From an alpha proteobacterium MED-G09 (GTDB taxonomy: Bacteria > Pseudomonadota > Alphaproteobacteria > MED-G09), in the NCBI GenBank assembly GCA_905182015.1, contig CAJIZT010000008.1, forward strand, positions 57,801-121,800: a DNA stretch of 64,000 bases. Reading direction: 5' to 3'. Shown in pieces: positions 32,704 to 49,546 of this stretch (position 1 is the first letter of the stretch; every line of letters begins with the position of its first letter). A program made the translations under genes and the position numbers. The notes beneath the pieces are model-generated. The model worked only from the letters and a program-made list of their open reading frames with translations. It made no database searches and was not told the DNA's origin.

Positions 32704-32752
32704 AATTTTTATTCAAAATATAATAAATTCTTAATTTGTAGGAGGGTAAAGA

Positions 32753-33268: not shown

Positions 33269-33272
33269 GATA

Positions 33273-34532
33273 TTATTTTTTTAAGAATTTAATTGGTAAC
33301 TCTTTCATCTGATGAATATATAAACTTGAATGATGAGGAATCTCGGGTAGCGGTCTAGCAAGCTCTATATTTTTTAATCTTTCAAATAAGTGTATGAATG
33401 CAGTTTTCATCTCTGCTCGCGCAAGCATTGCTCCAACACAATGATGGGGGCCCGATCCAAAAGCTAAATGTTTACCAACATCCTTACGTTCAACATTAAA
33501 CTCTTCAGGATTTGTAAATATTTCTTCATCCCTATTAAATGACGCATACCTTACTAGCAAAACGCTTCCCTTCTTAATACTCTCTCCATCAATCTCAGTG
33601 TCTTCTGTTACAGTTCGAAAAAGGCCCTGAACAGGTGTTTCAAATCTGATAACCTCCTCAACAAAGTTAGGTATAAGGTCTATATCTTCAATGATTTTAT
33701 TCATTTGTTTGGGATGTTTCAATAAAAGCCAAAGTCCGTGCGCTATTGAACTTGTGGTTGTCTCATTGCCTCCGGCTAATAATTGAGCAACCAGCCCTTG
33801 AAGCTCATCATTAGTTAGGTTCTCACCTCCATCAAGCTTAAGGTTTACTAATTCAGATATAATGTCATCTGTTGGATTTTTTCTCTTATCATTGAATATT
33901 TTATCAAAATAATGTTGGGACTCTGCCTCCAGGTGAGCAGCTTTCTTCATTTCTTCTACGTTTGCAACCCCGAACGAAACAATCATTGCATCTGACCATA
34001 ACTTTAGTTTCGGGAGCATTGATCTTGGTACACCCAGCTGGTCGGCAATAATTGTAGATGGAATTGGAACCGCATAATCATTAACAAACTCACACTCGCC
34101 TTTCTCTATAAAGGAATCAATTAAGTCATTCACGACTTTTGAAATATAAGGCTGCATCTCTTTAACTCTACTAGATGTAAACGCTTTGTTTAATAATTTT
34201 CTATATTTACTGTGTAGAGGTGGGTCTGTTCTTTGAAGTGTCTCCACAAAAGACCCCACACCATAATTCTTAATAATCTCCGCATGTGCCTTAATGCCTT
34301 CGTCTTCATAGCTATCGTGCTGGGTAGGTTTATTAGAAAACTTTTTTGTATCAAGAAGAATTTGTCTTCCATCTTTATATTTTGTGATCATATAAAAGCC
34401 TAAATCAGGCATTTTATAGACTGGGCATTCTGCTCGAAGATTCTTATAGCTCTCATATGGGCAACTTTGAATCTTGGGATCCATAAAATTTATATTTTTT
34501 ATTAAAGAGCTCTGCTGATTTTTTTCTTTCAT
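33273..34532 (-). CDS. Cytochrome P450 (paralog 1).
   Basis: Heme-thiolate loop FGSGPHHCVGAMLA, an ExxR motif (EEVIRFETP), and an I-helix AGGNETT. Confidence 0.85.
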   Translation of the reverse strand: MKEKNQQSSLIKNINFMDPKIQSCPYESYKNLRAECPVYKMPDLGFYMITKYKDGRQILLDTKKFSNKPTQHDSYEDEGIKAHAEIIKNYGVGSFVETLQRTDPPLHSKYRKLLNKAFTSSRVKEMQPYISKVVNDLIDSFIEKGECEFVNDYAVPIPSTIIADQLGVPRSMLPKLKLWSDAMIVSFGVANVEEMKKAAHLEAESQHYFDKIFNDKRKNPTDDIISELVNLKLDGGENLTNDELQGLVAQLLAGGNETTTSSIAHGLWLLLKHPKQMNKIIEDIDLIPNFVEEVIRFETPVQGLFRTVTEDTEIDGESIKKGSVLLVRYASFNRDEEIFTNPEEFNVERKDVGKHLAFGSGPHHCVGAMLARAEMKTAFIHLFERLKNIELARPLPEIPHHSSLYIHQMKELPIKFLKK

Positions 34533-34724
34533 TTTTTTTATTCTTTTTAAGTTATCTATTAATTTACTCTAATTAATTGAAATAAAAATTAAATAGAAAA
34601 AATCAATTAATCGGGGTTTCATACTCAAGCATGAGCATAAAAAGTAAAATCCTTATAGAAATTTTATTACTTTCTCCTAGAATATTAAGTCTTAGTATCA
34701 ATAAAATAATGGAGGCCTTGAACT

Positions 34725-37013
34725 ATGCTAGATATCAAAAATATTCTTTTAATTACTAGTGCAATTTTTTTAATTGCCCCAGTTAACACTTTATTCTCTC
34801 AAGAATCACCGATTGAAAACACTTATGGCTTAGAAGAAATAGTTGTTACAGCTCAAAAAAGAGAGGACTCTATTCAGACAGTCCCTATAGCTATAACAGC
34901 AGTCAGCGGAGATATTTTAGATCAACGAGCTGTTGTTAATCTTGAAAGCTTACAAGGTTTAGTCCCGGGTGCCCAGATTGGACAATTCGCAAATACTCCT
35001 CATGGCGCAGTATTTAATATTAGGGGTATGGGAGCTATTGAGCCAGATCCATATGCAGGTAGTGCTGTTTTGGTTACAATCGATGGTGTTCCGCAATATT
35101 TTAATATGACCTCATTAGTTGACCTATTTGACGTTGAACGTGTTGAGGTTTTAAGGGGACCACAAGGAACTCTATTTGGTGCTAATTCCACTGGAGGCGT
35201 TGTAAATATTATAACAAAAGCTCCTTCAGGTGAATATAATGGGAAGGTCCAAGTTACTGCTGGGGATTGGAACAGATTAGATGTCAAGGCTGCTGCAGAT
35301 TTACCAATAAACGAAAAATTATCTCTTAGGCTTTCAGGCTTTCATCACGGACGTGATGGATGGATTATAAATGCTTATGACGGTTCTGACATGGGAAGTG
35401 TTAATGTAAACTCTATCCGTGCAACTTTAAGATATGATGCAGGATCCGGTTTTGAAGCAACATGGCGTAATGAAATTTTAAGATCAAAAAATGGAGGCCC
35501 GTATATAGGTATGGGCGCTTATCCAGGTGAGGCAGAATATACGGCACCGGGAACGATAGGTGCGGGACAGCATGGCGGAGTACAGTATGCCAGTTATTGC
35601 ATGCCTGAAGGTACCCCTTGTAAAGCTCGTGATACATATTATTCTGCCAATAGCTCAGAAAAAGATATGTCAGATATGAATGTAGATTCCTCAACTCTAG
35701 AAATGGTCTGGAATGATACATCATTTGGAACAATCACCTCAATTACAAGTTATAAAAAGTTTGATCTTCATGAGTACACTGATCAAGATGGTACTGTTGT
35801 ATATCATTCTGGAACAGATCGTAGGACTGACGGCGACCAAATGACTCAAGAAATAAGAATTAATTCTGAAGTTTCAGATAACATAGATGTAGTTTACGGT
35901 TTATATCTTAGTGAAGACTCGTATTATCACACACAAAACTTTAATGCTCAATTCGCTTCCCCCGGCTTTAGTCAGCTATCGTCCCAAGATCAAGAAAGAA
36001 GCTCACAAGCATTATTTGCTCATAGCTTTATTGATTTATCAGACAAACTGAGACTCCAGGTTGGTGGTCGATATTCAAAAGAAGAAGCTGATATGAAAGT
36101 TGAAGTAGTAAATTTCATAAGCTTAGATGGTATATCAAGATACTTTGGGGACGATCGTCTGGCTGATTTTGGTATAGACTTTGGTGCATCAGGTAAGGAT
36201 GAGTGGACTGATTGGTCTGCAAAAGCTGGTCTTGACTACCAAATTTCAGAGAACACTTTGGCATACGGACATATATCACGTGGCTTTAAATCTGGAGGCT
36301 TCGTTGGAAGAATTACAGTTCCTGAAGATATTGGTCCATATGATCCAGAAATAGTTGAAACCATCGAAATTGGTGTAAAAAGTGATCTATTGGATAATAA
36401 ATTAAGATTGAATATAAATATTTTTAAAAATGACTATCAAGATCTTCAATTAGCATTAATTTATTTTACAAAAAATGCAGCGGGCTTTGATGTAAATGGT
36501 AATTCAATACTTAATGCTGCCGATGCAACTACTCAAGGTATTGAAGTAGAGTTTTTCGCTGCACCATCTGCTGCCCTTAGAGTTAATGGATCAGTAACTT
36601 ATCTTGACGCAGAGTATGATGATTTTCCATACTTAAATACTGATGGTTCTACCACCAACTTAAGGGGGTATAGATTACAAAATTCTCCAGAAATTACAGC
36701 CAGCTTTGGTTTTGATTATACTTGGAGAATGGGTGATGGAGATATGAGCTTATCTGCATTATATAAATATAATGATGAAAAGTTTAATACCAGTCTATTA
36801 AACACACCTCGATCAACTATTCAGGAAACAGACTTGGTTGATGCTAATCTTATGTGGAGTCCTGACAGTGATGACTGGTCAGTAAATTTTTGGGTTAAAA
36901 ATATTGCTGACGAAAGATATATTTCTAGTGTTTTTGAGGCACCTGGAGTTTTAGCAATCGTAAACTTTTTACCCCCAAGGGAGTTCGGAGTGTCTTTTGA
37001 TTTTAATTGGTAA
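34725..37013 (+). CDS. TonB-dependent outer-membrane receptor (TBDR-1).
   Basis: Signal peptide; plug domain with EEIVVTAQKRE and VLRGPQGTLFG; a long beta-barrel ending in an aromatic residue (FDFNW). Confidence 0.85.
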   Translation: MLDIKNILLITSAIFLIAPVNTLFSQESPIENTYGLEEIVVTAQKREDSIQTVPIAITAVSGDILDQRAVVNLESLQGLVPGAQIGQFANTPHGAVFNIRGMGAIEPDPYAGSAVLVTIDGVPQYFNMTSLVDLFDVERVEVLRGPQGTLFGANSTGGVVNIITKAPSGEYNGKVQVTAGDWNRLDVKAAADLPINEKLSLRLSGFHHGRDGWIINAYDGSDMGSVNVNSIRATLRYDAGSGFEATWRNEILRSKNGGPYIGMGAYPGEAEYTAPGTIGAGQHGGVQYASYCMPEGTPCKARDTYYSANSSEKDMSDMNVDSSTLEMVWNDTSFGTITSITSYKKFDLHEYTDQDGTVVYHSGTDRRTDGDQMTQEIRINSEVSDNIDVVYGLYLSEDSYYHTQNFNAQFASPGFSQLSSQDQERSSQALFAHSFIDLSDKLRLQVGGRYSKEEADMKVEVVNFISLDGISRYFGDDRLADFGIDFGASGKDEWTDWSAKAGLDYQISENTLAYGHISRGFKSGGFVGRITVPEDIGPYDPEIVETIEIGVKSDLLDNKLRLNINIFKNDYQDLQLALIYFTKNAAGFDVNGNSILNAADATTQGIEVEFFAAPSAALRVNGSVTYLDAEYDDFPYLNTDGSTTNLRGYRLQNSPEITASFGFDYTWRMGDGDMSLSALYKYNDEKFNTSLLNTPRSTIQETDLVDANLMWSPDSDDWSVNFWVKNIADERYISSVFEAPGVLAIVNFLPPREFGVSFDFNW

Positions 37014-37039
37014 AAATATATAATATATAAGATAAATCT

Positions 37040-37100
37040 GCCTTTACGTTTTTCATCAAAATATTCTTTAATTAAGAATATTGAAGAAACGTAAGGGCAT
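37040..37100. terminator. Long AT-rich imperfect hairpin between the convergent TBDR-1 and GFA genes; a candidate bidirectional terminator.
   Basis: CCTTTACGTTTTTCATCAAAATATTCTTTA, an 8-nt spacer, then AAGAATATTGAAGAAACGTAAGGG as imperfect inverted arms. T-runs follow on both strands. Confidence 0.35.
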
Positions 37101-37117
37101 TTTTATTTCTTTAAAGC

Positions 37118-37525
37118 CTAAGATATAGGATTCCTTTTAAAGCTTGGAAGATCATCATTTACTGGGTCCCATTTATTTGCAGAGATACTCCAGTAACTTG
37201 ATTCCGCTTTAACCCAAGAGGAATTATCTAGACTGCCAGCCTTTATGAATCTCAGATCAGGCTGCTCTGTTACATAGCTTATAACTGGAGAACCACAATC
37301 TGGACAAAAACCTCTATTTACATTAGTTCCGTCTGTGCCAATAACAGAATATATTTTGAAATCCATACTAATTTCTAAATCCTCAGTTGGAACAAATATA
37401 ATCGTTGCCTTTCCTGACCCTGTTGCTCGCTGACAGTCAGCACAATGACAATGACCCGAAGAAAGAACTCTTTCTCTATTAAATTTATAACGAATTTTAC
37501 CGCATAAACATCCACCTGTTTCCAT
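37118..37525 (-). CDS. GFA (glutathione-dependent formaldehyde-activating / CENP-V-like) family zinc protein.
   Basis: CLCGKIRY, then GHCHCADCQRATGS, then GFCPDCGSPV: the characteristic Cys pattern of PF04828. Confidence 0.7.
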   Translation of the reverse strand: METGGCLCGKIRYKFNRERVLSSGHCHCADCQRATGSGKATIIFVPTEDLEISMDFKIYSVIGTDGTNVNRGFCPDCGSPVISYVTEQPDLRFIKAGSLDNSSWVKAESSYWSISANKWDPVNDDLPSFKRNPIS

Positions 37526-37547
37526 TATTATTCTCCTTCCTTTATTG

Positions 37548-38558
37548 CTATTCCATTTCCTTTATCCATTCATAGATAACAGGCAAAGCTTCTTTATGAC
37601 TCAGACTTCTACTGAGTTCTGGCATCATGACACCTGGATCTGTTGAAGCCATTCTGAACAAAAGAATGGATTCCTCTGGCTTACCAGGATTAATAACGTA
37701 TTCCATATTGCCGCTTCCTCTTCCGGCCGCCACAGGTTTTTTCATAACACCAATCGCCATCCTACCAACCTCTTCTAAGGAAAGATAAAGTCCAGAATTA
37801 CCTGCTGAACCTCCTTTTCTGTGACAGTGAGCACAATTAGAATCTAAATAAGACCTTGCTCTTTCAGGAATTAAAAAGGTTTCATCATTCCAAATAGCTG
37901 GCTTTATCATTTTTTTCTTAGGAACGTCCTTGAGTAACTTATTTTCTTCCCAATAGTCTATTTGATTTTCTTTACCACTTTGATAGAAAAAATCTAAATC
38001 CATATTTCTACCTTTAGGACCGATTGGCATTATTGCTTTATTGAGTTGGTGACAAGACTTACACTGATTAATATTTGGAACTCTATATCGAGCATTCCTT
38101 ACATTTCCATTCTTATCTATCCAATTAGCTTCTATGGTTTTACCAATAAATTTTAATTTTGCATCTGTTTGATTTTCATTCCATACATAAGAAACAGGTG
38201 TCCATCCTTCTTTTTTATGAATCAAAAGTCTTGTCTCAAGCAATTGAAACCCTTTCTTTAAATCCCTATCATCAACTGGGTAAGCGAAAGTCTTGATTAT
38301 TGTTGTTCCAAGAGGAAAATTAAAGATATTTTCGTAGTTATAGGACGCTACCTTATTGTCTGGCATTGAAATAAAACGAAATTTATAGGTATAGTCTGAA
38401 AATAAAGGATTAGCTATATGATAAGGTATCACCCCCTCTTTTGGAATCTGCTCTCTAATATTTTTAAAAAAATTATACTCTGATAAAAATAAAGGCTCTG
38501 CTTTTAGCGAACTTATTAGAAAAAACGTCACAAGGATAATTATAAAATATTTTATCAA
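37548..38558 (-). CDS. Secreted diheme c-type cytochrome (SO_2930-like family).
   Basis: Signal peptide, two CxxCH motifs (CKSCH, CAHCH), and a Met-rich C-terminus (DPGVMMPELS). Confidence 0.65.
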   Translation of the reverse strand: MIKYFIIILVTFFLISSLKAEPLFLSEYNFFKNIREQIPKEGVIPYHIANPLFSDYTYKFRFISMPDNKVASYNYENIFNFPLGTTIIKTFAYPVDDRDLKKGFQLLETRLLIHKKEGWTPVSYVWNENQTDAKLKFIGKTIEANWIDKNGNVRNARYRVPNINQCKSCHQLNKAIMPIGPKGRNMDLDFFYQSGKENQIDYWEENKLLKDVPKKKMIKPAIWNDETFLIPERARSYLDSNCAHCHRKGGSAGNSGLYLSLEEVGRMAIGVMKKPVAAGRGSGNMEYVINPGKPEESILLFRMASTDPGVMMPELSRSLSHKEALPVIYEWIKEME

Positions 38559-38563
38559 ATGAG

Positions 38564-39799
38564 CTAATCCTGTAAAAAGACTACAGGCTTAATAGACTCT
38601 AACTCGCCCATATAATTACTGTAATTGTTATCAATCTTATGAATTATTGGTACTAAAAATTTTGTCATTAATTTTAAATTAACAAAATCTGCTTTGCCAG
38701 ATTCTGTAAAATTACTTCCCAGGGTTACTCTACTGGAGGGACTAATACCTATCCATTCAATAAACGGGACAACGCCATCCCAAACGATTTCAGGAATCTT
38801 GCCATTTATAGCATCGGATATAGGCTTAGCCCTTACCTTATCAACATCAAATCCATTATTATTTAAAGTATTGCCATGAATATAAATATGATTTCCTATT
38901 GGATCATAGTTTTTATCTTCTGCCTCATCCTGATAGCTTGCAATTAAAATGCCAGTTGTTGCATTATTCTTGATTACATTATCTCTTATCTCAACAAATT
39001 GATTGGCCATAATCATTATACCAGTGCCATTTGGTGTGTTCCCAACAATATTTCCTTCGGGTGCAAAATTCTTAGTGTCATTATTAATAACAAGATTATT
39101 TGCCACTAAAATATCATGACCACCTTGCTGAGGAAGGTCGGGCAAATCAAAAATCAGAATACCTCCTGTATTATGTTCTGCAGTATTACCTATAACTTCT
39201 GCAAAATAACTGTTTTCGATCTCAATACCTGCGACATTATATTTTGCTAAACTATTTAAAACTTTTATTCTTTCAGATTGGCCAACATAAATTCCAGCAT
39301 CTGATGCACCTATCGCTATACAGCTATCTATTAAGACATCACTGCTTTGAACGGGATAAAGACCATAGGCTCCATTTGATTCTTTTGGACCACCCGTCCA
39401 CTCAACCCGAATCCTAATAAAACTAATGCCATTGGCTCCTTTAACAACAATTGCATCTCCAATCGTATCCTCGATAGCAAAATCTTTTAAAACAACACCG
39501 CTTGAAGTTACTAATAAACCCTCTGCACCTGATTTCTGATTCTTAAAAGATAAAATTGTTTTATCTTCACCTTCACCTGCAACAGTTACGTTGTCTATAT
39601 CTAAAGATAGGCCATCCTCAAATTCGAAAATTCCTTCTGATAATTGGATTAGATCACCTGGTTTTGAAAAAATTAATGCTTTTTGTATTTCGTCATAAGC
39701 ACGAGGGCCAGGCTGGATCGTATTAGAAAAAAGAGAACTGATTAAACCTATAAAAACAAAAATATTTAAAATAATAATATTTAAGAATTTTTTTTTCAT
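38564..39799 (-). CDS. Secreted parallel beta-helix repeat protein.
   Basis: Signal peptide, then repeated Asn/Gly-rich rungs (NNLVINNDTKNF, GNTPNGTGIMIMANQFVEIRDNVIKNNATTGILIAS). Confidence 0.65.
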   Translation of the reverse strand: MKKKFLNIIILNIFVFIGLISSLFSNTIQPGPRAYDEIQKALIFSKPGDLIQLSEGIFEFEDGLSLDIDNVTVAGEGEDKTILSFKNQKSGAEGLLVTSSGVVLKDFAIEDTIGDAIVVKGANGISFIRIRVEWTGGPKESNGAYGLYPVQSSDVLIDSCIAIGASDAGIYVGQSERIKVLNSLAKYNVAGIEIENSYFAEVIGNTAEHNTGGILIFDLPDLPQQGGHDILVANNLVINNDTKNFAPEGNIVGNTPNGTGIMIMANQFVEIRDNVIKNNATTGILIASYQDEAEDKNYDPIGNHIYIHGNTLNNNGFDVDKVRAKPISDAINGKIPEIVWDGVVPFIEWIGISPSSRVTLGSNFTESGKADFVNLKLMTKFLVPIIHKIDNNYSNYMGELESIKPVVFLQD

Positions 39800-39803
39800 A
39801 GAA

Positions 39804-41051
39804 TTATCTTTTTCTAAATTTAATATGAAGCTCTTTTAGCTGATGTAAAAAAATACTCGGTTGATGAGGAATATCTGGTAGGTCTTTAGCTAGCTCGATA
39901 CCATCAATACGATCGAAGAAATGTTTAAAGGCTGCTAGCATTTCCGCCCTAGCCAAACTTGCCCCGATACAATGATGAGCGCCTGATCCAAAAGCAAGAT
40001 GTTTTCCAACATCTTTTCGTTCCACATTAAATATCTCAGGATCCTCGAATATATCTTCATCTCTATTTAATGCAGCATATCTGACCAGAAGAGTACTTCC
40101 TTTTGGGATCTTTACACCTCTCATCTCAGTATCGACTGTTGCCGTTCTAAAAAGGCCTTGAACAGGGGTCTCATAACGAATAGTTTCCTCAATAAATTTT
40201 GAAATAAGATCGTTATTTTCCATAACTTTTTTCATTTGCTCTGGGTGTCTTAATAATAACCACATTCCGTGCGCTATTGAACTTGTTGTTGTCTCATTTC
40301 CACCTGTTAATAATTGATTGATCAGATCTTGAAGCTCATCTTCTGTTAACTTTCTTTCTCCATTAAAGTCAGCATTAACTAACTCTGATATAATATCGTC
40401 TGTAGGTTTTATTCTTTTTTCCTCAAAAATACCTTTAAAATAATGTTGGGACTCAACCTCAAGACGAGCCGCATTTTCCATCTCCTCCACACTCGCCATC
40501 CCGCTAGCCGGAATTAACATTGCATCTGACCAGGATTTAAATTTACCTAAGTACTCTCTTGGAACACCTAACTGATCAGCAATAATTGTACACGGAATAG
40601 GCACGGCATATTCTGAAACAAAATCACATTCGCCGTTATCAATAAACCCATCAATTAAGTCATTGACGACACCAGAAATGTAAGGATTCATTTCCTTAAC
40701 CCTGCTTAAGCCAAAGGCTTTATTTAAAAGTTTACGATATTTTGTATGAATTGGCGGATCTGTTCTTTGGAGTGTCTCTGGTCTTTTACCAAAACCCTCG
40801 GTATTCATTATTTCATGATGGCGTTTTACGCCTTCACTTTCATAGCCTTGTTGATGTGAGTATGTATTAGAAAAAGTAACGGTATCTTTCATAACCATCC
40901 TAGCATCATCATACTTCGTGATCATATAAAATCCTACCTCTGGCATCTTATAGACAGGACACTCGGATCTAAGGGTTTTATAAGCTTCATAAGGACAGCT
41001 TTGTGTTGCCGGGTCCATAAAGCTTATCGATTCTAAGTCTAATTTACTCAT
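39804..41051 (-). CDS. Cytochrome P450 (paralog 2).
   Basis: FGSGAHHCIGASLA, an ExxR motif (EETIRYETP), and TGGNETT. It shares about 60% identity with paralog 1 by eye. Confidence 0.85.
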   Translation of the reverse strand: MSKLDLESISFMDPATQSCPYEAYKTLRSECPVYKMPEVGFYMITKYDDARMVMKDTVTFSNTYSHQQGYESEGVKRHHEIMNTEGFGKRPETLQRTDPPIHTKYRKLLNKAFGLSRVKEMNPYISGVVNDLIDGFIDNGECDFVSEYAVPIPCTIIADQLGVPREYLGKFKSWSDAMLIPASGMASVEEMENAARLEVESQHYFKGIFEEKRIKPTDDIISELVNADFNGERKLTEDELQDLINQLLTGGNETTTSSIAHGMWLLLRHPEQMKKVMENNDLISKFIEETIRYETPVQGLFRTATVDTEMRGVKIPKGSTLLVRYAALNRDEDIFEDPEIFNVERKDVGKHLAFGSGAHHCIGASLARAEMLAAFKHFFDRIDGIELAKDLPDIPHQPSIFLHQLKELHIKFRKR

Positions 41052-41075
41052 AAAAATCCCCCCCGAGATAATTTT

Positions 41076-41984
41076 TTATACTCTATCCCAATTATGTTTT
41101 TTTATCCAATCTTCAAAATACGTTGGCTTAACGCCTAGCATTTTATAAACTGGATCCATATCAACCGCCAGAGGTGACGGGTTTTGTTCATTATACCAGC
41201 TATAAAAAGCAGCCATCCCCCCATAAATAGATTGGTCCTCATATACTTCTGATCCGGTCACCAATTTACTCATTGATCCAGCAAAATTTTCCGGCTTCAG
41301 GCTTGAGAAAGTAATTTCACGACCAAGTACTTTTGTAAATTTTTTAGCTACCTCATCTCCAAGAAGAACCTCGGGACCCCCGACTAGAATCTTATCTCTT
41401 TTAAAGTTATTATTAGATAACGCTGCAACCATAAAAGCCGCCACATCATCAAGACATATCCATGATATTTTTAACTCTGGTGAGCATGGGTAGGCAAAGG
41501 TATTATTATTTGTAATAGATGGTTTAGACCAAAAACGAGTAAGGTTATCCATAAAGACTACTGACCGAATAACAACATACTCCATGCCGCTTTCTTCCAT
41601 ACACCTTTCAATCTCTCTTCTTCCATCATGAGCCTCTAAACCATTATCCTTGGGCGCAACATAACAACTGGTATTAAAAACAATTTTCTTTACTCCCATT
41701 TTTGCACCGGCTTTTGTAATATTTTCCCCCCATTGTTTTGCGGTTGCTTTATCAAAAACAAATGGCAAATTCATTGCGATAGCATCAACTCCATCGGATG
41801 CAACCATTAGGGATTCTAAGTCAAAAAGATCGGCTCGAATTGTTTCAATATTTTTAGAAAAGTCATCATTATATTCTGAAGGATTCCGAGTTACTGCTCG
41901 AACCTTATATCCTTTTTCCAATAATACATTCACAAGTGGTACGCCCTGATCTCCACTAGCTCCATAAACAAGGATTTTATTCAT
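41076..41984 (-). CDS. NmrA-like NAD(P)-binding protein. The tracked ORF extends to 42005; the likely start is MNKILVYGASGDQG.
   Basis: N-terminal Rossmann motif LVYGASGDQG. The size fits the NmrA/PCBER family. Confidence 0.65.
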   Translation of the reverse strand: MNKILVYGASGDQGVPLVNVLLEKGYKVRAVTRNPSEYNDDFSKNIETIRADLFDLESLMVASDGVDAIAMNLPFVFDKATAKQWGENITKAGAKMGVKKIVFNTSCYVAPKDNGLEAHDGRREIERCMEESGMEYVVIRSVVFMDNLTRFWSKPSITNNNTFAYPCSPELKISWICLDDVAAFMVAALSNNNFKRDKILVGGPEVLLGDEVAKKFTKVLGREITFSSLKPENFAGSMSKLVTGSEVYEDQSIYGGMAAFYSWYNEQNPSPLAVDMDPVYKMLGVKPTYFEDWIKKHNWDRV

Positions 41985-43623
41985 TATAGCTCTCCTTACT
42001 AACATAATTATTACCAGCGGCGTGTCTACCTGCTAAATATCCGTAAGTTAAGGCTGGTCCTAATGTTCCTCCAGCACCTGCATAAACAGACCCGGTACTT
42101 CCTGACATAGCGTTCCCGACTGTATAAAGGCCCTCGATAACACTTCCTGATGCTGAAATAACTCTCCCAAGCTCGTCTGTCCTTGCGCCACCATTTGTTC
42201 CTAATGCTCCAATATTAATTTCAGCAGCAAAGTATGGAGCTTTTTCAAGTTTGCCTAAAGTTGAATAGACGCCAGCCTTAGATCGATCGCCATAGAATGA
42301 ATCGTACTCACTTTTACCCCTAGAAAACTCTATATCATCCCCGTTCTCAACATAAGAATTAAAAAAATTTACTGTTTCAATTAAATTTTCAGAATTGATA
42401 TCCAGTTCCTCGGCCAAGCCTTCTAAAGTACCCGAATGCTTTAGCCAGTCTGGGTTTTCAGATCCAGGCATTACATTAGCAAAAGGGTATTTATCTCTAT
42501 AATTAGAATCAAAGATTATCCATGATGGTAAATTTGGATACCCGTATTCATTTGGATCAAAAAAATGAAATGCACCTGCTAGTGCAGAATAATTAGTTGC
42601 TTCGTTACAAAATCTTTTTCCAAACTTATTGACCATAAGAGAGTGCGGAAGAGTTCTTTCAATTAAAATAGGCGATGATTTTTGCCCTCCCTCAGGCCAA
42701 TTATCGCCAGGTATGGATAGAACGGGAGACCACCAAGCGCTTGTCATATTTCCAAGAGATGCTCCGATTTCTTGTACCATTTTCAATCCGTCACCATCAT
42801 TTCCTGGAGGAGAAGCTGGAGCATTTAAAGGGCCACGTAAAAAAGTAGAAACAAAATCTTTATTCCACTCAAAACCGCCAGTTGCAATAATTACTCCTCG
42901 CCGAGCAATAATAGTTTCCAAAACACCATCCTGTTCAATTTCAATACCAATAATTCTTTCACCTTCCTTAATTAACTTTTTAGTTTTTATTTCTAATTGT
43001 GGTTCAATACCTCTATCAAGGCAGCCCTTCAAAAGAGCTCCAACCAATGCTTGTCCAAACCCTCTTGAATCCTTTTTAACCCGCTTAGACATTATTTCGT
43101 TTGAAATAATCCCTGTCCCACCTCCTAGTGGGGTTTCGGCTAAGGTCATAGGAATAGGCATACCATTGTTTCTGACCTTTGAGGCCCAGTCACCCAGGAT
43201 AGAAAAATCAAACAGTTTGTTATCTAATGCACGGCCGCCATCCTTAAGGGCGCCAGGCCTATCAAGATAGTAATCGGGATATCCCTCTAGAATGGAAAAC
43301 TCTGCATCAGTTTTTTCTTCTAAAAAGTCTAAAGCTTCACCGCAATTATCAATAAATGCTTCTAGTAGGGATTGATTTATTTCTCCCTGCGAGAGAGACA
43401 TGAAATAATCAATAGATTTAGTTCTATCATCTTGTATGCCTTTTTTCTTCATGTGGCTATTCATCGGAGCCCAAATTATACCTCCAGAAATACCTGCCGT
43501 TCCTCCCACTAAAGATTGTTTTTCAAAAATCTTTACTGATGAACCACTTTCATGGGCACTAAGTGCAGCCATCATGCCGCTAGCGCCTGCACCTAAGATC
43601 ACTACATCAACTTCTTTTTTCAT
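41977..43623 (-). CDS. FAD-dependent oxidoreductase of the fumarate-reductase flavoprotein / 3-ketosteroid-delta1-dehydrogenase (KstD)-like family.
   Basis: N-terminal VDVVILGAGASGMMAAL, a C-terminal GLYTVGNAMSGSTGSVYAGAGGTLG, and an FAD_binding_2 architecture. The product is 548 aa. Confidence 0.75.
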   Translation of the reverse strand: MKKEVDVVILGAGASGMMAALSAHESGSSVKIFEKQSLVGGTAGISGGIIWAPMNSHMKKKGIQDDRTKSIDYFMSLSQGEINQSLLEAFIDNCGEALDFLEEKTDAEFSILEGYPDYYLDRPGALKDGGRALDNKLFDFSILGDWASKVRNNGMPIPMTLAETPLGGGTGIISNEIMSKRVKKDSRGFGQALVGALLKGCLDRGIEPQLEIKTKKLIKEGERIIGIEIEQDGVLETIIARRGVIIATGGFEWNKDFVSTFLRGPLNAPASPPGNDGDGLKMVQEIGASLGNMTSAWWSPVLSIPGDNWPEGGQKSSPILIERTLPHSLMVNKFGKRFCNEATNYSALAGAFHFFDPNEYGYPNLPSWIIFDSNYRDKYPFANVMPGSENPDWLKHSGTLEGLAEELDINSENLIETVNFFNSYVENGDDIEFSRGKSEYDSFYGDRSKAGVYSTLGKLEKAPYFAAEINIGALGTNGGARTDELGRVISASGSVIEGLYTVGNAMSGSTGSVYAGAGGTLGPALTYGYLAGRHAAGNNYVSKESYNE

Positions 43624-43685
43624 TTAACTTTTCCTTTTGAGAAACATTAATCAAAAAATTAGAATTTATCTAGATAAAAAAAAGG

Positions 43686-43701
43686 GCTCCGCGGAGCCCT
43701 A
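43686..43701 (-). terminator. Intrinsic terminator just downstream of TBDR-2 (GC-rich palindrome with a U-run on the minus strand).
   Basis: GGGCTCCGCGGAGCCC is a perfect palindrome. It is flanked by AAAAAAAA on the plus strand, which is an 8-U tail on the minus strand. Confidence 0.6.
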
Positions 43702-43725
43702 ATTTAATCAATTAAGAACAATAAG

Positions 43726-46116
43726 TTAGAATTTACCAGTTAGGCGAACACCGTAAGTTCTATTTGCTATAGTATTAGCAAAAAACCAGTTACCAACATC
43801 AACAGCACGTCCTAACCTAGCGCCTTGATGACCAAGATCATTTACGAATGCAGAAATTTCTACTTCAGGACCTCCAGCCATTAACTCACCCTCATAGGTT
43901 ACAGAAACATCAAGCATTCCCCAAGCAGCATATTTAGAAAATTTATCGCCTAAATCATCAATACCAACGTAAGAATACGGTGAAGAGTAATTTTCAGCTG
44001 TATAGCTATAGTTAATATTGAAAGCAATTTCTCCTAAGCCAGCCGCAAAAAAGAACTCAGTTCCAACAGACCATGTTTCCTCAGGAGCACCACGGAAATT
44101 TCTTGTTGATTTGACATCATTTCCAAATTGGTCAAGAAAGGAATCATATCCAGCATCCAAATATCCATAAGTCATAGTTGAAATCCAATTGCTATTAATT
44201 AGATATTGAGCATCAATTTCAAAACCCTGCATTGTCGCTGAGGCTGCATTATCAACAATAGTTTCAACAGTATCAGAAAAAGGAGAGTCCCTTAGAATTT
44301 CCTCTTGTTTGTCGGAATATTCCATATCAAAAATTGCCATATTTAATCTAAGGCTACCATCCATAAGAATAGACTTCAAACCAACTTCGATATTCGTAAC
44401 TTCTTCAGGGTCGTATGGTCCAACAGTTGATGGAGTTAATCCACGACCATTCCAACCACCACTTCTAAAGCCTTCAGACCATGTTGCATAAAGATTAACA
44501 TTATCAGTTGCTGCGAAAGTTAAACTTACTCTGGGAGTAAAGGCGTCATAAGTAGCTGTACCAGTTCTGCAGCCCTCAATTGTAGAGGTAGGATCTGGAC
44601 AGGATGATATTAAAGGTAAAGGTGACCCATCTGCCTGTTTGCCAAATTCCTTTGAACTTAATGGCATAGGTACTGCTAGTGAAGTATCATAAACATCACT
44701 TTGGAAATCTTTTGTTTCTTCCGTATAACGACCACCTACAGCCAGCTGAACTCTGTCATTAATTTCATAGGTAAATTCACCAAAAACAGCTTGCGCCTCT
44801 GCTTGTTGCCTTGCAGAAAATTGCTGAACTAAGCCACCAAAGAAAAAGAATTTTTGTGGACTAAGGGCATATTCACTTTCAAAATAATATGCACCCGCAA
44901 CAAAGTTAAAAGGACCATCATAATTACTTCTAATTTGAAATTCTTGACTCTTTTGTTCGTATGTTTGAGGTCTGTTTGGAACAAAATTGTAAACGCCAGG
45001 TCCAAATAGATTAACCATTCCGCCATTTTCTTCATAAAGCCAATCGTCTGATTCCCAACCAGCAGTAATTGATTTAAAGCTAAAATCGCCTATATCCCAG
45101 CTCATATTCAAAGACCATGAGTCCGCTTCAACTGTTGATATAAAAGGATGATCAGATAATTGTACTGTAAAATCATTAGCCTTTTGAACATCATAACCAG
45201 TTGTGTAGCAGGCATTAGCTCCAAAAGCATCGCACAGTGTGCCTGGATGAGGTGTTCTGGAACCTGGTAATGTTACATTTACAGGTAATGGGTATTCTGA
45301 TTGATCATCCATTGTTTCGATTGTTAGTAATGCTTCAAAATTGTAATCATTTTGTGGGGTAAACAAGAAAGTTCCGTACATACTAGTAATGTCAGCACCT
45401 TTAACCTGGTCTCCATCATTATAAAAATCTCCGCCTGCGCCAGGTCCAATTTTTGCCCAGCTATCACCTTCAGTTTTATAAGCAGCCAATTTAAGAGCTA
45501 ATACATCTTTAATAATTGGGAAATTCAAAACAGCCTTAAACTCTGTTTTATCATAATTAGAAAGGCCTACGGACACTTTTCCGCCAAATTCTCCTGTAGG
45601 ACGACTTCTGGTGATATTAATAACACCACCAACGGTATTTCTTCCAAAAAGAGTACCTTGTGGACCTCTAAGCATTTCTACAGATTCAATATCAAACATC
45701 TCAATATTGGCACCAGTTGTTGTTCCAAAGAAAACTCCATCTAATGAAATGCCAACTGCAGGTTCAAATGATTTTTCTAAATCACTAAAGCTTATTCCTC
45801 TAATAGAAGCATTAATTCCACCACCTGTATAATTATTTCGATCCAAAACAACATTTGGAGCAAATCTCTGTAAATCATCAAGATCTGTTAAAAATGATCT
45901 TTCAATTGTTCTTGCGTCAATTGCTGTTATCGCAATTGGAACATCTTGAGTAGATTCTTCTCTTTTACGAGCAGTAACAATAATCTCCTCTATTGAATAA
46001 CCAGTTTCTTCTGGTAATGATGTACTTTCATCGGCAGAGATATTTGTGTTAAGAAATAAAAAAGGTAGTGAAAGCGCTATTACGCTTTTATAAAAAAATT
46101 TCATATTTTTCCCCAT
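43726..46116 (-). CDS. TonB-dependent outer-membrane receptor (TBDR-2).
   Basis: Signal peptide; plug domain with EEIIVTARKRE and MLRGPQGTLFG; a beta-barrel ending in a terminal F. Confidence 0.85.
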   Translation of the reverse strand: MGKNMKFFYKSVIALSLPFLFLNTNISADESTSLPEETGYSIEEIIVTARKREESTQDVPIAITAIDARTIERSFLTDLDDLQRFAPNVVLDRNNYTGGGINASIRGISFSDLEKSFEPAVGISLDGVFFGTTTGANIEMFDIESVEMLRGPQGTLFGRNTVGGVINITRSRPTGEFGGKVSVGLSNYDKTEFKAVLNFPIIKDVLALKLAAYKTEGDSWAKIGPGAGGDFYNDGDQVKGADITSMYGTFLFTPQNDYNFEALLTIETMDDQSEYPLPVNVTLPGSRTPHPGTLCDAFGANACYTTGYDVQKANDFTVQLSDHPFISTVEADSWSLNMSWDIGDFSFKSITAGWESDDWLYEENGGMVNLFGPGVYNFVPNRPQTYEQKSQEFQIRSNYDGPFNFVAGAYYFESEYALSPQKFFFFGGLVQQFSARQQAEAQAVFGEFTYEINDRVQLAVGGRYTEETKDFQSDVYDTSLAVPMPLSSKEFGKQADGSPLPLISSCPDPTSTIEGCRTGTATYDAFTPRVSLTFAATDNVNLYATWSEGFRSGGWNGRGLTPSTVGPYDPEEVTNIEVGLKSILMDGSLRLNMAIFDMEYSDKQEEILRDSPFSDTVETIVDNAASATMQGFEIDAQYLINSNWISTMTYGYLDAGYDSFLDQFGNDVKSTRNFRGAPEETWSVGTEFFFAAGLGEIAFNINYSYTAENYSSPYSYVGIDDLGDKFSKYAAWGMLDVSVTYEGELMAGGPEVEISAFVNDLGHQGARLGRAVDVGNWFFANTIANRTYGVRLTGKF

Positions 46117-47362: not shown

Positions 47363-47373
47363 GGATAAAAATT

Positions 47374-49543: not shown

Positions 49544-49546
49544 AGA

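What the first reader, a model, noticed from the sequence alone, without database searches (positions are those of the whole stretch)
33273..46116. Duplicated P450 plus TonB-receptor module
Two paralogous cytochrome P450s (419 and 415 aa, about 60% identical by eye, with identical heme-loop architecture FGSG-HHC-GA-LARAEM) are each associated with a TonB-dependent receptor. P450-1 is transcribed divergently from TBDR-1 across a 192-bp shared promoter region. P450-2 sits in the operon directly downstream of TBDR-2. A duplicated receptor-plus-P450 pair suggests two related substrates are taken up and hydroxylated. TBDRs are unusual cargo for small AT-rich alphaproteobacterial genomes.
Basis: seen in the sequence. 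Interest (0 to 1): 0.5.

Follow-up and report, generated by a model that had tools for sequence, protein, structure and literature searches.

The report
Two P450s beside unrelated TonB receptors
A marine OCS116-type alphaproteobacterium carries two related cytochrome P450 genes, each next to an outer-membrane TonB-dependent importer, but the two importers were added separately to an older breakdown-gene island and were not copied together with the P450s; this is an ordinary import-plus-oxidation arrangement of a known kind.

Summary
The genes are real and at the stated coordinates. The P450s (419 and 415 aa) are 67% identical and share the haem loop. Both receptors are intact. The "duplicated receptor-plus-P450 module" reading fails.

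- **Receptors not co-duplicated.** The two receptors are only 28-30% identical. Each has many closer relatives in other bacteria (44-53% and 37-43%), and they fall in separate deep clades.
- **Independent insertions.** Relatives show all four states: no receptor, TBDR-2 only, the SnoaL_4/P450-1/TBDR-1 cassette only, or both.
- **P450-1 and TBDR-1 are tightly linked.** They stay neighbours in three different gene arrangements.
- **TBDR-2 linkage is looser.** A terminator hairpin and two genes (KstD-like, NmrA-like) separate it from P450-2. It also occurs at another locus.
- **P450-1 is the faster-evolving copy.**
- **P450 clade.** P450-1, P450-2 and a P450 from marine Dehalococcoidia form one tight clade whose internal order is unresolved.

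Best reading: substrate-specific outer-membrane importers were plugged into a conserved oxidative island of Rieske oxygenases, a KstD-like dehydrogenase, P450s and MFS transporters. The likely substrates are alicyclic, sterol- or terpenoid-like compounds, but the substrate is unproven. The arrangement matches known catabolic receptor clusters (EdcT/EdcA, DdvT). It is a new member of a known kind, of moderate interest.

The parts
31270..32703 (+). Rieske oxygenase alpha subunit 'RieskeB'. It is the conserved flank of the cassette. In relatives that lack the cassette it lies directly next to GFA.
   Evidence: Pfam Rieske plus Ring_hydroxyl_A. 90-93% identical in relatives. Empty-site junctions are seen in L090, L100 and L016.
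32753..33268 (+). SnoaL_4 (NTF2-like) protein 'SnoaLB'. It is the first gene of the strain-variable cassette.
   Evidence: Pfam SnoaL_4, E = 5.6e-18. Absent together with P450-1 and TBDR-1 in L090, L100 and L016. No solved homologue by sequence.
33273..34532 (-). Cytochrome P450-1 (419 aa). It is the faster-evolving paralogue and stands alone as a transcription unit.
   Evidence: Pfam p450. 67% identical to P450-2. About 60 unique changes against about 30 for P450-2, and 18 fixed clade changes against 2. AlphaFold model pLDDT 86.7; best fold matches are CYP125, CYP109 and CYP142.
34533..34724 (.). 192-bp AT-rich (78% A+T) spacer between the divergent P450-1 and TBDR-1 genes.
   Evidence: Sequence. 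Poorly conserved in relatives. No motif shared with the TBDR-2 spacer. No Fur box.
34725..37013 (+). TonB-dependent receptor TBDR-1 (762 aa).
   Evidence: Plug plus barrel domains. Signal peptide, TonB box and C-terminal Trp. Orthologues are 78-86% identical, then foreign proteins 44-52%. Inverted in L013, L103 and L104 but still next to P450-1.
37118..37525 (-). GFA-family (glutathione-dependent formaldehyde-activating-like) protein. It is the last gene of the P450-2 operon.
   Evidence: Pfam GFA, E = 8.6e-26.
37548..38558 (-). SO2930-family dihaem c-type cytochrome (TIGR03806).
   Evidence: NCBIfam score 370.6 bits, above the cut-off of 313.3. A CxxCH motif is present.
38564..39799 (-). Parallel beta-helix protein (TIGR03805). 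It is the usual gene partner of the dihaem cytochrome.
   Evidence: NCBIfam score 372.3 bits, above the cut-off of 141.5. Pfam Beta_helix and NosD.
39804..41051 (-). Cytochrome P450-2 (415 aa). It is the slower-evolving paralogue and the third gene of the KstD operon.
   Evidence: Pfam p450. 85-86% identical orthologues in all relatives of the OCS116 group. 67-69% identical to marine Dehalococcoidia P450s.
41076..42005 (-). NmrA-like NAD(P)-binding protein.
   Evidence: Pfam NmrA, E = 7e-31.
41977..43623 (-). KstD-family flavoprotein (3-oxosteroid / cyclic-ketone delta-1-dehydrogenase-like). It is the first gene of the operon.
   Evidence: PDB 7p18 (3-oxosteroid 1-dehydrogenase) E = 2e-94. NCBIfam ChcC1 440 bits and KstD 413 bits, both below their cut-offs. 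Equivalents of the KstD1 catalytic Tyr, Tyr, Tyr and Gly are aligned and conserved.
43683..43700 (-). Intrinsic-terminator-like hairpin directly after TBDR-2 and before the KstD operon.
   Evidence: Sequence AGGGCTCCGCGGAGCCCT followed by eight T. It folds as predicted.
43726..46116 (-). TonB-dependent receptor TBDR-2 (796-aa ORF; the likely start is 46104, giving 792 aa).
   Evidence: Plug plus barrel domains. Signal peptide, TonB box and C-terminal Phe. Orthologues are 85-86% identical, then foreign proteins 37-43%. Absent in L016, L103 and L104. Present 99.3-99.7% identical at a second locus in L091-L093.
46117..46573 (.). 457-bp spacer between TBDR-2 and the divergent SDR gene. It contains a strong hairpin (46283..46307) and an 18-nt direct repeat (46418 and 46540).
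   Evidence: No Rfam family and no credible ORF.
46574..50065 (+). Divergent operon: SDR (46574..47362), enoyl-CoA hydratase (47374..48165), Rieske alpha 'RieskeC' (likely 48191..49543) and SnoaL_4 'SnoaLC' (49547..50065).
   Evidence: Pfam hits. Start-codon check. Syntenic in relatives.
50062..52797 (-). Two MFS_2 (GPH-type) inner-membrane transporters. They are candidate inner-membrane partners of the receptors.
   Evidence: Pfam MFS_2, E = 1e-86 and 1e-78. MFS_2 paralogues also accompany a P450/TBDR/SnoaL cluster in L031.

Best explanation
The window comes from a marine alphaproteobacterium of the OCS116 group. It carries a conserved oxidative catabolic island.

**Island content**
- five Rieske oxygenase alpha subunits, three of them followed by SnoaL_4 genes
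- a KstD-type cyclic-ketone dehydrogenase and an NmrA-like reductase
- a class-I P450
- a periplasmic beta-helix / dihaem cytochrome c pair
- SDRs, an enoyl-CoA hydratase and MFS transporters

**Two separate additions of outer-membrane importers**
1. A three-gene accessory cassette, SnoaL_4 + P450-1 + TBDR-1 (window 32704..37117), was inserted between the convergent RieskeB and GFA genes.
2. A single-gene unit, TBDR-2 with its own terminator, was inserted between the divergent SDR and KstD operons.

**Origin of the P450s (inferred)**
- P450-1 is a diverged paralogue, or a close xenologue, of the resident P450-2.
- It evolved about twice as fast. Its changes concentrate in the regions that line P450 substrate pockets.

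**Proposed mechanism (inferred, not shown)**
- Each receptor uses TonB energy to bring a bulky or hydrophobic organic substrate into the periplasm.
- MFS_2 carriers take it across the inner membrane.
- The neighbouring P450, using redox partners encoded elsewhere, hydroxylates it.
- The KstD-like enzyme, the Rieske oxygenases and beta-oxidation-type enzymes degrade it further.

**Substrate (inferred)**
- The most likely class is alicyclic ketone, sterol-like or terpenoid-like compounds. The two P450/receptor pairs probably handle different but related molecules.

**What is shown directly**
- gene identities
- non-orthology of the two receptors
- independent presence and absence of the two insertions
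- conserved P450-1/TBDR-1 linkage
- rate asymmetry between the P450s
For: **Gene identities.**

**Organism.**
- The nearest genomes are the single-cell genomes 'Hyphomicrobiales bacterium AH-657-K06' and 'OCS116 cluster bacterium AG-390-I16', with 73-82% nucleotide identity over syntenic kilobases.
- The exact P450-1 protein is listed in 72 index blocks; every contig shown comes from an ENA metagenome assembly and has the same gene order.

**Receptors not co-duplicated.**

**All four presence/absence states exist.**
- Neither receptor: MED801 contig L016, where SDR and KstD are 128 bp apart and GFA abuts RieskeB.
- TBDR-2 only: L090.
- Cassette only: L103 and L104.
- Both: the window, L001-L005, and L006 of the AH-657-K06 type. 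The AH-657-K06 loci L007 and L011 stop short of the TBDR-2 position.

**P450-1/TBDR-1 linkage survives three arrangements.**
- Divergent: the window, L011, L012.
- Co-directional, with TBDR-1 directly upstream: L013, L103, L104.
- Convergent, with an extra Rieske gene between them: L097, L102.

**TBDR-2 moves as a unit.** A stretch of about 2.5 kb is 99.3-99.7% identical in two unrelated contexts.

**Rate asymmetry.**
- About 60 unique changes in P450-1 against about 30 in P450-2 (chi-square 9-23), and 18 fixed changes against 2.
- By my count, 17 of the 29 clade-specific differences listed fall in the B-C loop, the F-G region, the N-terminal part of the I helix, beta1-4 and the beta4 hairpin of the AlphaFold model. 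These segments cover about 23% of the protein.

**Substrate class.**
- The KstD-like protein matches a solved 3-oxosteroid 1-dehydrogenase at E = 2e-94 and keeps the catalytic Tyr, Tyr, Tyr and Gly positions.
- The best fold matches of P450-1 are sitosterol-bound CYP125, CYP109Q5 and cholestenone-bound CYP142.

**Relatives of both receptors sit in oxidative catabolic clusters.**
- L095: Rieske, P450, TBDR, SnoaL_4, GMC oxidoreductase.
- L010: SnoaL_4, TBDR, GMC oxidoreductase.
- L094: TBDR, PQQ dehydrogenase, SDR.
- L021-L028: TBDRs, SnoaL_4 genes and tandem P450s.

**Precedents in the literature.** EdcT with the P450 EdcA (PMC7793797), and DdvT and sphingomonad transporters (PMC6874591 and PMC7142613).
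Against: - No substrate, expression or transport data exist for this uncultured lineage.
- TBDR-2 is separated from the P450-2 operon by a terminator. It is absent in relatives that keep the operon and also sits at another locus, so its coupling to P450-2 may be loose or incidental.
- The P450s are below 40% identity to every characterised P450: 36% to the reconstructed CYP125 and 27-31% to CYP142 and CYP109. The steroid or terpenoid assignment is therefore only a resemblance.
- The Rieske proteins resemble aromatic-ring and N/O-demethylating oxygenases, not KshA.
- A GFA gene in the operon would also fit demethylation chemistry on methoxylated aromatics.
- No extradiol dioxygenase, TonB/ExbBD genes, ferredoxin or reductase lie in the window.
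- Monophyly of P450-1 plus P450-2, excluding the Dehalococcoidia clade, is unresolved: 43% against 57% bootstrap. An in-genome duplication is therefore not proven.
- A receptor within 10 kb of a P450 homologue was seen in only about 15 of roughly 50 Gram-negative loci (my count). That is not far above what receptor-rich genomes would give by chance.
Confidence: 0.6

Rival explanations
1. Co-duplication: an ancestral TBDR+P450 pair was duplicated as a unit, giving two modules for two related substrates.
For: The two P450s are 67% identical and lie in one clade with 100% bootstrap support. Each has a TonB-dependent receptor nearby.
Against: - The receptors are only 28-30% identical, while the P450s are 67% identical.
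- Hundreds of foreign receptors are closer to each than they are to one another, and they fall in separate deep clades.
- The two receptors are present or absent independently in relatives.
- Gene order and orientation differ between the two pairs.
Confidence: 0.03
2. The receptors import iron, siderophores or haem. They sit here to supply metal cofactors for the many haem and Rieske iron enzymes, not to import the carbon substrate.
For: - JGI annotates the homologues generically as 'iron complex outermembrane receptor protein'.
- The best NCBIfam subfamily hit for both is TonB-siderophor.
- The island is rich in iron enzymes.
Against: - The TonB-siderophor scores are 160 and 119 bits, below the cut-off of 223.5.
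- No Fur-box-like site lies upstream of either gene; the matches found are inside coding sequence and at chance level.
- No siderophore ABC transporter or periplasmic binding protein was found nearby.
- The nearest foreign relatives lie in oxidative catabolic clusters, not iron-uptake loci.
- The P450-1/TBDR-1 pair is kept together through rearrangements.
Confidence: 0.08
3. Incidental adjacency: the locus is a hot spot of a flexible genomic island where single-gene receptor units land and are lost neutrally. The receptors serve unrelated nutrients and have no functional tie to the P450s.
For: - TBDR-2 is a self-contained unit with its own terminator. It is missing in relatives that keep the operon and is 99% identical at a second locus.
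- TBDR-1 also carries its own terminator-like hairpins.
- No shared regulatory motif was found.
Against: - P450-1-type and TBDR-1-type genes co-occur in every lineage examined (window, AH-657-K06, AG-390-I16, SI039_bin91, L103/L104, L097/L102), in three different arrangements.
- They are gained or lost together with SnoaLB as one cassette.
- Receptors of other clades recur beside homologous P450s in Sphingomonadales and other MAGs.
Confidence: 0.15
4. The import-plus-oxidation logic is the same, but the substrates are methoxylated or lignin-like aromatic compounds, or glycosides, not sterol- or terpenoid-like alicyclics. The P450s and Rieske enzymes act as demethylases or hydroxylases, and GFA handles the formaldehyde released.
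For: - The Rieske alpha subunits best match GbcA, HcaE, carnitine and stachydrine-type oxygenases.
- A GFA gene closes the P450-2 operon.
- MFS_2/GPH carriers and a beta-helix protein are reminiscent of carbohydrate-utilisation receptor loci (PMC1790865).
- DdvT is a precedent for import of lignin dimers (PMC6874591).
Against: - The KstD-type enzyme with intact catalytic residues points to a saturated cyclic ketone.
- The fold neighbours of the P450 are dominated by sterol and steroid binders.
- No ring-cleavage dioxygenase and no glycoside hydrolase family was detected in the window.
Confidence: 0.2

Closest known systems
edc estrogen-degradation cluster of Novosphingobium (Caenibius) tardaugens: CYP450 EdcA plus TonB-dependent receptor EdcT (PMC7793797)
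   Same: - A class-I P450 that hydroxylates a steroid and a TonB-dependent receptor implicated in uptake of the same substrate are encoded in one catabolic cluster.
- The redox partners are encoded elsewhere.
- The host is an alphaproteobacterium.
   Different: - No extradiol dioxygenase (the EdcB equivalent) is present in the window.
- The one C. tardaugens receptor among the top hits (P0195, 46% to TBDR-1) lies in a different cluster, with a TetR regulator, SnoaL_4 and a GMC oxidoreductase.
- Here there are two P450/receptor pairs, and they vary between strains.
DdvT and other catabolic TonB-dependent transporters of sphingomonads (PMC6874591, PMC7142613)
   Same: - These receptors import an organic carbon substrate, not iron, and sit beside the degradative genes.
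- Sphingomonad receptors are the nearest foreign relatives of TBDR-1, at 44-52% identity.
   Different: - The known substrate there is a lignin-derived biphenyl.
- The host here is a low-GC oligotrophic marine lineage.
- Identity is too low to infer the same substrate.
CYP125 / CYP142 sterol side-chain (C26) monooxygenases and CYP109 steroid/terpenoid hydroxylases
   Same: - They are the best sequence and fold matches of P450-1 and P450-2.
- A KstD-type dehydrogenase is encoded in the same operon as P450-2, as in steroid catabolic regions.
   Different: - Identity is 27-36%, below the 40% convention for a CYP family.
- No mce4, hsa or KshA-type genes were detected.
- The hosts of the characterised enzymes are actinobacteria or Bacillus.
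Carbohydrate-utilisation loci containing TonB-dependent receptors (CUT loci) of Xanthomonas and aquatic bacteria (PMC1790865)
   Same: The architecture is the same: an outer-membrane TonB-dependent receptor, an inner-membrane MFS-type carrier and degradative enzymes at one locus.
   Different: The enzymes here are oxygenases and dehydrogenases, not glycoside hydrolases. No regulator is present in the locus.

Membership tests
Cytochrome P450 (Pfam PF00067), soluble class-I bacterial type | Pfam score above the gathering cut-off; Cys haem loop FxxGxxxCxG; ExxR motif in the K helix; I-helix (A/G)Gx(D/E)T(T/S) motif | tested here: met
   - Scores are 134.7 and 119 bits against a cut-off of 22.8.
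- FGSGPHHCVG / FGSGAHHCIG, GGNETT and E..R are visible.
- The AlphaFold model has the P450 fold, with TM-scores of 0.8-0.86 to solved P450s.
CYP125 / CYP142 steroid C26-monooxygenase families | At least 40% identity to family members (CYP nomenclature convention, from general knowledge) | tested here: not met
   36% to the reconstructed CYP125 and 27-30% to CYP142 structures.
CYP125 / CYP142 steroid C26-monooxygenase families | Sterol side-chain hydroxylase activity | not testable with these tools
   This needs an enzyme assay.
TonB-dependent receptor | N-terminal signal peptide, TonB box, Plug domain, 22-strand barrel domain, C-terminal aromatic residue | tested here: met
   Plug and TonB_dep_Rec_b-barrel hits lie above their cut-offs for both proteins. 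The sequences show the signal peptide, EEIVVTA / EEIIVTA and a terminal W or F.
TonB-dependent siderophore receptor (TIGR01783) | Score above the curated cut-off of 223.5 bits | tested here: not met
   160.1 bits for TBDR-1 and 118.9 bits for TBDR-2.
   The receptors are 28-30% identical against 67% for the P450s. They sit in separate deep clades with many closer foreign sequences.
   P450-1, P450-2 and the marine Dehalococcoidia P450s form a clade with 100% bootstrap support. P1+P2 gets 43% and P2+Dehalococcoidia gets 57%.
KstD (3-ketosteroid delta-1-dehydrogenase) family, for the first gene of the P450-2 operon | FAD_binding_2 fold and the catalytic Tyr119/Tyr318/Tyr487/Gly491 of R. erythropolis KstD1 (residue list recalled from the literature) | tested here: met
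   Pfam FAD_binding_2, E = 1e-63. In the alignment to 4c3x, all four positions are conserved (PDYY, NY, VYAGAG).
KstD (3-ketosteroid delta-1-dehydrogenase) family, for the first gene of the P450-2 operon | NCBIfam equivalog cut-off | tested here: not met
   412.7 bits against a cut-off of 788 for PRK07843. 440.3 bits against a cut-off of 1000 for ChcC1.
edc-type estrogen catabolic cluster | P450 EdcA, extradiol dioxygenase EdcB, oxidoreductase EdcC and receptor EdcT in two divergent operons | tested here: not met
   - No extradiol dioxygenase or glyoxalase-fold protein was found among the ORFs scanned.
- Seven ORFs of 120 aa or more (13038..16656, 61513..61968, and two that overlap annotated genes) were never scanned, because one search failed.
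- Gene content and order differ from those described in PMC7793797.
- Orthology of the individual proteins was not tested.

The most novel reading that the evidence does not exclude
In streamlined OCS116 bacteria, outer-membrane importers behave as strain-variable plug-in units. A SnoaL_4/P450-1/TBDR-1 cassette and a solo TBDR-2 are swapped in and out of a conserved oxidative island. P450-1 was re-tuned after duplication to a new hydrophobic alicyclic substrate, such as sterol-, hopanoid- or terpenoid-derived marine dissolved organic matter. The same P450 lineage was exchanged across phyla with SAR202-type Dehalococcoidia. This would point to a shared and still unidentified class of marine substrate whose uptake by Gram-negative oligotrophs needs TonB-powered import.
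Probability: 0.25. Interest if true: 0.6.

Novelty: new member of a known kind. Interest (0 to 1): 0.35.

Why it matters
- TonB-dependent receptors are highly expressed in the ocean, yet the substrates of most of them are unknown.
- This locus ties one receptor lineage firmly to one P450 lineage in an abundant uncultured marine alphaproteobacterium. Natural variants with and without the cassette exist.
- That gives concrete candidates for expression, binding and hydroxylation assays.
- It also sets up a presence/absence contrast that metagenome and metatranscriptome data could link to particular compounds or water masses.
- The close P450 relatives in marine Dehalococcoidia hint that distant oligotrophs share oxidative tools for the same class of alicyclic organic matter.
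- None of this overturns current understanding. It extends the known idea of catabolic TonB-dependent receptors from sphingomonads to a streamlined pelagic lineage.

Tried and rejected
- **Shared regulatory motif.** The best ungapped match between the two spacers is 13 of 16, the same as shuffled sequences. The 18-nt direct repeat upstream of the SDR gene occurs only there, and two or more matches arose in 27 of 100 shuffles.
- **Footprinting of the P450-1/TBDR-1 spacer.** Alignment against three relatives showed only scattered conservation.
- **Fur box.** There are no sites in the spacers, and counts are at chance level.
- **Promoter scan.** Not above chance.
- **Rfam.** Only one tRNA in the whole window. 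No credible small ORF in the 457-bp spacer.
- **Repeats flanking TBDR-1 or TBDR-2.** Nothing convincing that could explain the inversion or insertion. The empty-site junctions show no target duplication.
- **EdcT orthology.** I tested whether the C. tardaugens hit P0195 is EdcT. Its context shows it is a different locus.
- **Redox partners.** No ferredoxin or reductase gene is in the window.
- **SnoaLB function.** Sequence search against solved structures gave no meaningful hit.
- **Literature.** Searches for OCS116 or PS1 genomics, SAR202 P450s, SO2930 and TBDR+SnoaL+P450 returned nothing relevant.
- **Failed call.** One Pfam call failed because I gave wrong coordinates for the small ABM gene. 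Seven ORFs of 120 aa or more therefore went unscanned (13038..16656, 61513..61968, and two that overlap annotated genes).
- **KshA-type assignment.** Considered and rejected for the Rieske proteins: no KshA among the solved-structure matches of RieskeB (E up to 1e-8) or the NCBIfam hits of RieskeB and RieskeC; RieskeA, D and E were not searched.

Full report
**1. What is in the sequence**

- P450-1 (33273..34532, minus strand, 419 aa) and P450-2 (39804..41051, minus strand, 415 aa) both match Pfam p450.
- They are 67% identical over 410 residues. Their haem loops are nearly the same: FGSGPHHCVGAMLARAEM and FGSGAHHCIGASLARAEM.
- TBDR-1 (34725..37013, plus strand) and TBDR-2 (43726..46116, minus strand) both have Plug and barrel domains.
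- Both receptors also have a signal peptide, a TonB box and a terminal aromatic residue.
- P450-1 and TBDR-1 are divergent across 192 bp.

P450-2 is not directly downstream of TBDR-2. The order on the minus strand is:
- TBDR-2
- a terminator-like hairpin at 43683..43700
- a KstD-like flavoprotein
- an NmrA-like protein
- P450-2
- a TIGR03805 beta-helix protein
- a TIGR03806 dihaem cytochrome c
- a GFA-family protein

The last six genes are separated by gaps of 4-24 nt or overlap.

**2. The wider setting**

The two pairs lie inside a catabolic island of about 40 kb that is interleaved with core genes (kdsB, pheA, amtB).
- The island has five Rieske alpha-subunit paralogues. Three are followed by SnoaL_4 genes.
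- It also has SDRs, an enoyl-CoA hydratase, two MFS_2 carriers, metallo-beta-lactamase-fold proteins, a dienelactone hydrolase and amidohydrolases.
- No ferredoxin, reductase, TonB/ExbBD genes, regulator or ring-cleavage dioxygenase was found in the window.
- GC content is uniform, 36-38% for the four focal genes against 36.5% overall. Nothing marks a recent foreign insertion.

**3. Origin of the window**

- The exact P450-1 protein is listed in 72 index blocks; every contig shown is an ENA metagenome assembly with the same gene order.
- The closest genomes are the single-cell genomes 'Hyphomicrobiales bacterium AH-657-K06' and 'OCS116 cluster bacterium AG-390-I16'. Next come MAGs labelled Alphaproteobacteria SI039_bin91 and Rhodobiaceae MED801.
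- These are syntenic with the window over kilobases at 73-82% nucleotide identity.
- The window is therefore from a marine alphaproteobacterium of the OCS116 group. This is an inference from its relatives.

**4. Test of co-duplication**

The receptors are 30% identical by BLASTP and 28% on a trimmed alignment.
- TBDR-1 has its own orthologue group at 78-100%. After that come more than 90 foreign proteins at 44-52%, from Novosphingobium, Caenibius, Luminiphilus and Haliea.
- TBDR-2 has orthologues at 85-100%, then foreign proteins at 36-43%.
- In a joint tree the two fall in separate deep clades. The receptors that sit beside P450 homologues in other taxa form still other clades.

The P450s behave differently.
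- P450-1-type, P450-2-type and a group of marine Dehalococcoidia P450s each get 100% bootstrap support.
- Together they form a clade with 100% support. Everything else is at most about 52% identical.
- The order inside that clade is unresolved: P1+P2 gets 43% and P2+Dehalococcoidia gets 57%.

So the P450s are close paralogues, or close xenologues. The receptors are not co-duplicates.

**5. Natural variants show two independent insertions**

Re-annotation of related contigs with the window proteins gave every combination.

| State | Contigs | Notes |
|---|---|---|
| No receptor, single P450-2 | L016 (MED801) | SDR and KstD 128 bp apart; GFA abuts RieskeB |
| TBDR-2 only | L090 | |
| Cassette only | L103, L104 | SDR, a 198-aa ORF, KstD...GFA, TBDR-1, P450-1, SnoaLB; no TBDR-2 |
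| Both | window, L001-L005, L006 | |

The AH-657-K06 loci L007 and L011 stop short of the TBDR-2 position, so that state cannot be read from them.

- The unit that comes and goes with TBDR-1 is three genes, SnoaLB + P450-1 + TBDR-1 (window 32704..37117). It lies between the convergent stop codons of RieskeB and GFA.
- MED801's single P450 groups inside the P450-2 clade next to the AH-657-K06 copy with 97% bootstrap. Its lack of the cassette is therefore more likely a loss, or a recombinational swap, than the ancestral state.

**6. Strength of each pairing**

P450-1-type and TBDR-1-type genes are neighbours in every lineage examined, in three arrangements.
- Divergent: the window, L011, L012.
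- Co-directional, with TBDR-1 immediately upstream: L013, L103, L104. The inversion is confirmed at nucleotide level.
- Convergent, with an additional Rieske gene between them: L097, L102.

Linkage that survives such rearrangement is good evidence for functional coupling.

TBDR-2 is more loosely tied.
- It has its own terminator.
- It is missing in relatives that keep the operon.
- A 2.5-kb stretch holding only this gene is 99.3-99.7% identical between the island context (L090) and a different locus. That locus holds an SDR, TBDR-2, two further receptors, a DUF3604 protein and a P450 only 40% identical (L091-L093).
- 82 of the 85 index blocks for this protein have contigs of only 2-5 kb. This is what a repeated or variable gene does to assemblies.

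**7. Divergence of the P450 copies**

- With the Dehalococcoidia sequences as reference, P450-1 has about 60 unique substitutions against about 30 for P450-2 (chi-square 9-23).
- Fixed clade-specific changes number 18 on the P450-1 branch and 2 on the P450-2 branch.
- On the AlphaFold model (pLDDT 86.7), I counted how many of the 29 clade-specific differences fall in five segments: the B-C loop, the F-G region, the N-terminal half of the I helix next to GGNETT, beta1-4 and the beta4 hairpin.
- The count is 17 of 29, and these segments cover about 23% of the protein. From general P450 knowledge, these regions line the substrate pocket.
- They are also intrinsically variable, so this supports a shift in specificity but does not prove one.

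**8. Substrate clues**

- The KstD-like protein matches a solved 3-oxosteroid 1-dehydrogenase at E = 2e-94.
- It keeps the residues aligned with the catalytic Tyr119, Tyr318, Tyr487 and Gly491 of R. erythropolis KstD1. The residue list is from my memory of the literature.
- Its best NCBIfam hits are 4-oxocyclohexanecarboxylate 2-dehydrogenase and KstD. Both score below their cut-offs.
- The best fold matches of P450-1 are sitosterol-bound CYP125, CYP109Q5 and cholestenone-bound CYP142, at 27-36% identity. That is below the family threshold.
- The Rieske proteins resemble aromatic and N-demethylating oxygenases, not KshA.
- The GFA gene would also fit formaldehyde-releasing demethylation.
- I therefore commit to an alicyclic ketone, sterol-like or terpenoid-like compound as the most likely class, at about 0.35 for the class. 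Methoxy-aromatics or glycosides are the main alternative.

**9. Are these iron receptors?**

- Scores against the siderophore-receptor subfamily are below its cut-off.
- No Fur-box-like site lies upstream of either gene.
- The nearest foreign relatives sit in oxidative catabolic clusters.
- In L095, a 41% relative of TBDR-2 is flanked by a Rieske gene, a P450, three SnoaL_4 genes and a GMC oxidoreductase.
- Sphingomonadales and other alphaproteobacterial MAGs repeat a pattern of receptors, SnoaL_4 genes and tandem P450s (L021-L028).
- Across all loci the association is not universal. By my count it holds in about 15 of roughly 50 Gram-negative loci.

**10. Comparison with known systems**

The logic matches catabolic TonB-dependent receptors.
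- EdcT sits with the P450 EdcA in the estrogen cluster of N. tardaugens. Deleting edcT slows growth on estradiol (PMC7793797).
- DdvT imports a lignin-derived biphenyl (PMC6874591).
- Carbohydrate-utilisation loci combine a receptor with an inner-membrane carrier (PMC1790865).

Membership in the edc system is not supported: no extradiol dioxygenase was found and the gene content differs. Membership in the CYP125 or CYP142 families fails the identity criterion.

**11. Verdict**

The P450s are paralogous and receptor-linked. The module was not duplicated.
- The receptors are unrelated lineages added independently, one as part of a three-gene accessory cassette.
- This is a new member of a known kind and of moderate interest. 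Its main value is a well-linked receptor/P450 pair, with natural knock-out variants, in an abundant uncultured marine lineage.

Noticed in passing
window 25796-27145(-), 31270-32703(+), 48191-49543(+), 52958-54343(-), 55724-57109(+); SnoaL_4 genes at 25217-25762(-), 32753-33268(+), 49547-50065(+): There are five Rieske oxygenase alpha-subunit paralogues in 32 kb. Three are immediately followed by SnoaL_4 (NTF2-like) genes where a canonical beta subunit would be expected. No reductase or ferredoxin gene is present in the whole window.
   Followed up: partly
window 37548-39799(-) and 27267-28199(-): The conserved gene pair of unknown function, TIGR03805 beta-helix protein plus TIGR03806 SO2930-family dihaem cytochrome c, sits inside the P450-2 operon. 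Both score above the NCBIfam cut-offs. A second cytochrome c-domain ORF that relatives match as a paralogue (not itself run against NCBIfam) stands alone beside another Rieske/SnoaL_4 pair.
   Followed up: partly
loci L017-L020, L008, L009 (marine Dehalococcoidia / SAR202-type MAGs): These P450s are 59-61% identical to P450-1 and 67-69% identical to P450-2, so they are as close to P450-2 as P450-1 is. They lie in a receptor-free context with an RPE65-like oxygenase, a molybdopterin oxidoreductase and a CoA-transferase. The gene GC (40.7%) is slightly below that of its flanks (41-45%). This suggests cross-phylum transfer, possibly from a low-GC donor.
   Followed up: partly
locus L071 (PS1-clade single-cell genome AH-321-D15), 7404-11224: The slot after KstD and NmrA holds a P450 only 46% identical to P450-2, while the neighbouring genes are 72-87% identical to the window. 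This looks like in-situ displacement of the P450. The beta-helix, cytochrome c, GFA and receptor genes are all absent there.
   Followed up: no
window 37118-43623 compared with 46574-47362 and 31270-32703: The KstD-to-GFA operon is only 74-79% identical at protein level between the window and all relatives (P450-2 85-86%). The flanking SDR (95-99%) and RieskeB (90-93%) are far more conserved. The operon may be a divergent allele brought in by recombination, or it may be under weaker constraint.
   Followed up: no
loci L090 compared with L091-L093: The TBDR-2 orthologue is 99.3-99.7% identical at nucleotide level over about 2.5 kb in two unrelated contexts. 82 of the 85 index blocks for it hold only 2-5 kb contigs. 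This suggests a recently moved or duplicated single-gene unit that breaks assemblies.
   Followed up: partly
window 46283-46307: A strong 11-bp-stem hairpin (GGCTCCG...CGGAGCC) flanked by A and T runs folds at -23 kcal/mol with z = -6.6. It lies in the spacer between the divergent TBDR-2 and SDR genes, where no transcript is expected to end. The shorter spacers of relatives lack it. Its purpose is unexplained.
   Followed up: partly
window 46418-46435 and 46540-46557: An 18-nt direct repeat (RTGATTTAAATAATCATA) occurs twice, 122 bp apart. The second copy lies just upstream of the SDR start codon. It is found nowhere else in the window, and two or more matches arose in 27 of 100 shuffles.
   Followed up: yes
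window 48086-48191 and 46104-46116: Two start codons are probably misplaced. RieskeC more likely starts at ATG 48191 than at TTG 48086, which overlaps the hydratase gene by 80 nt. TBDR-2 more likely starts at 46104 (MKFF...).
   Followed up: yes
window 521-6202(-): The left end of the window holds 2-oxoacid:ferredoxin-oxidoreductase-like ORFs (POR_N/POR, and Pyr_redox_2 with 4Fe-4S domains), a limonene-epoxide-hydrolase-like SnoaL protein and an acyl-CoA synthetase. This may be another catabolic module. EdcC of the estrogen cluster is also an oxidoreductase of this general type.
   Followed up: no
loci L006, L007, L100, L103, L104: A conserved ORF of 198-199 aa with no Pfam hit lies just upstream of KstD in several relatives. 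It is missing from the window, where only 102 bp and the terminator hairpin separate TBDR-2 from KstD.
   Followed up: no
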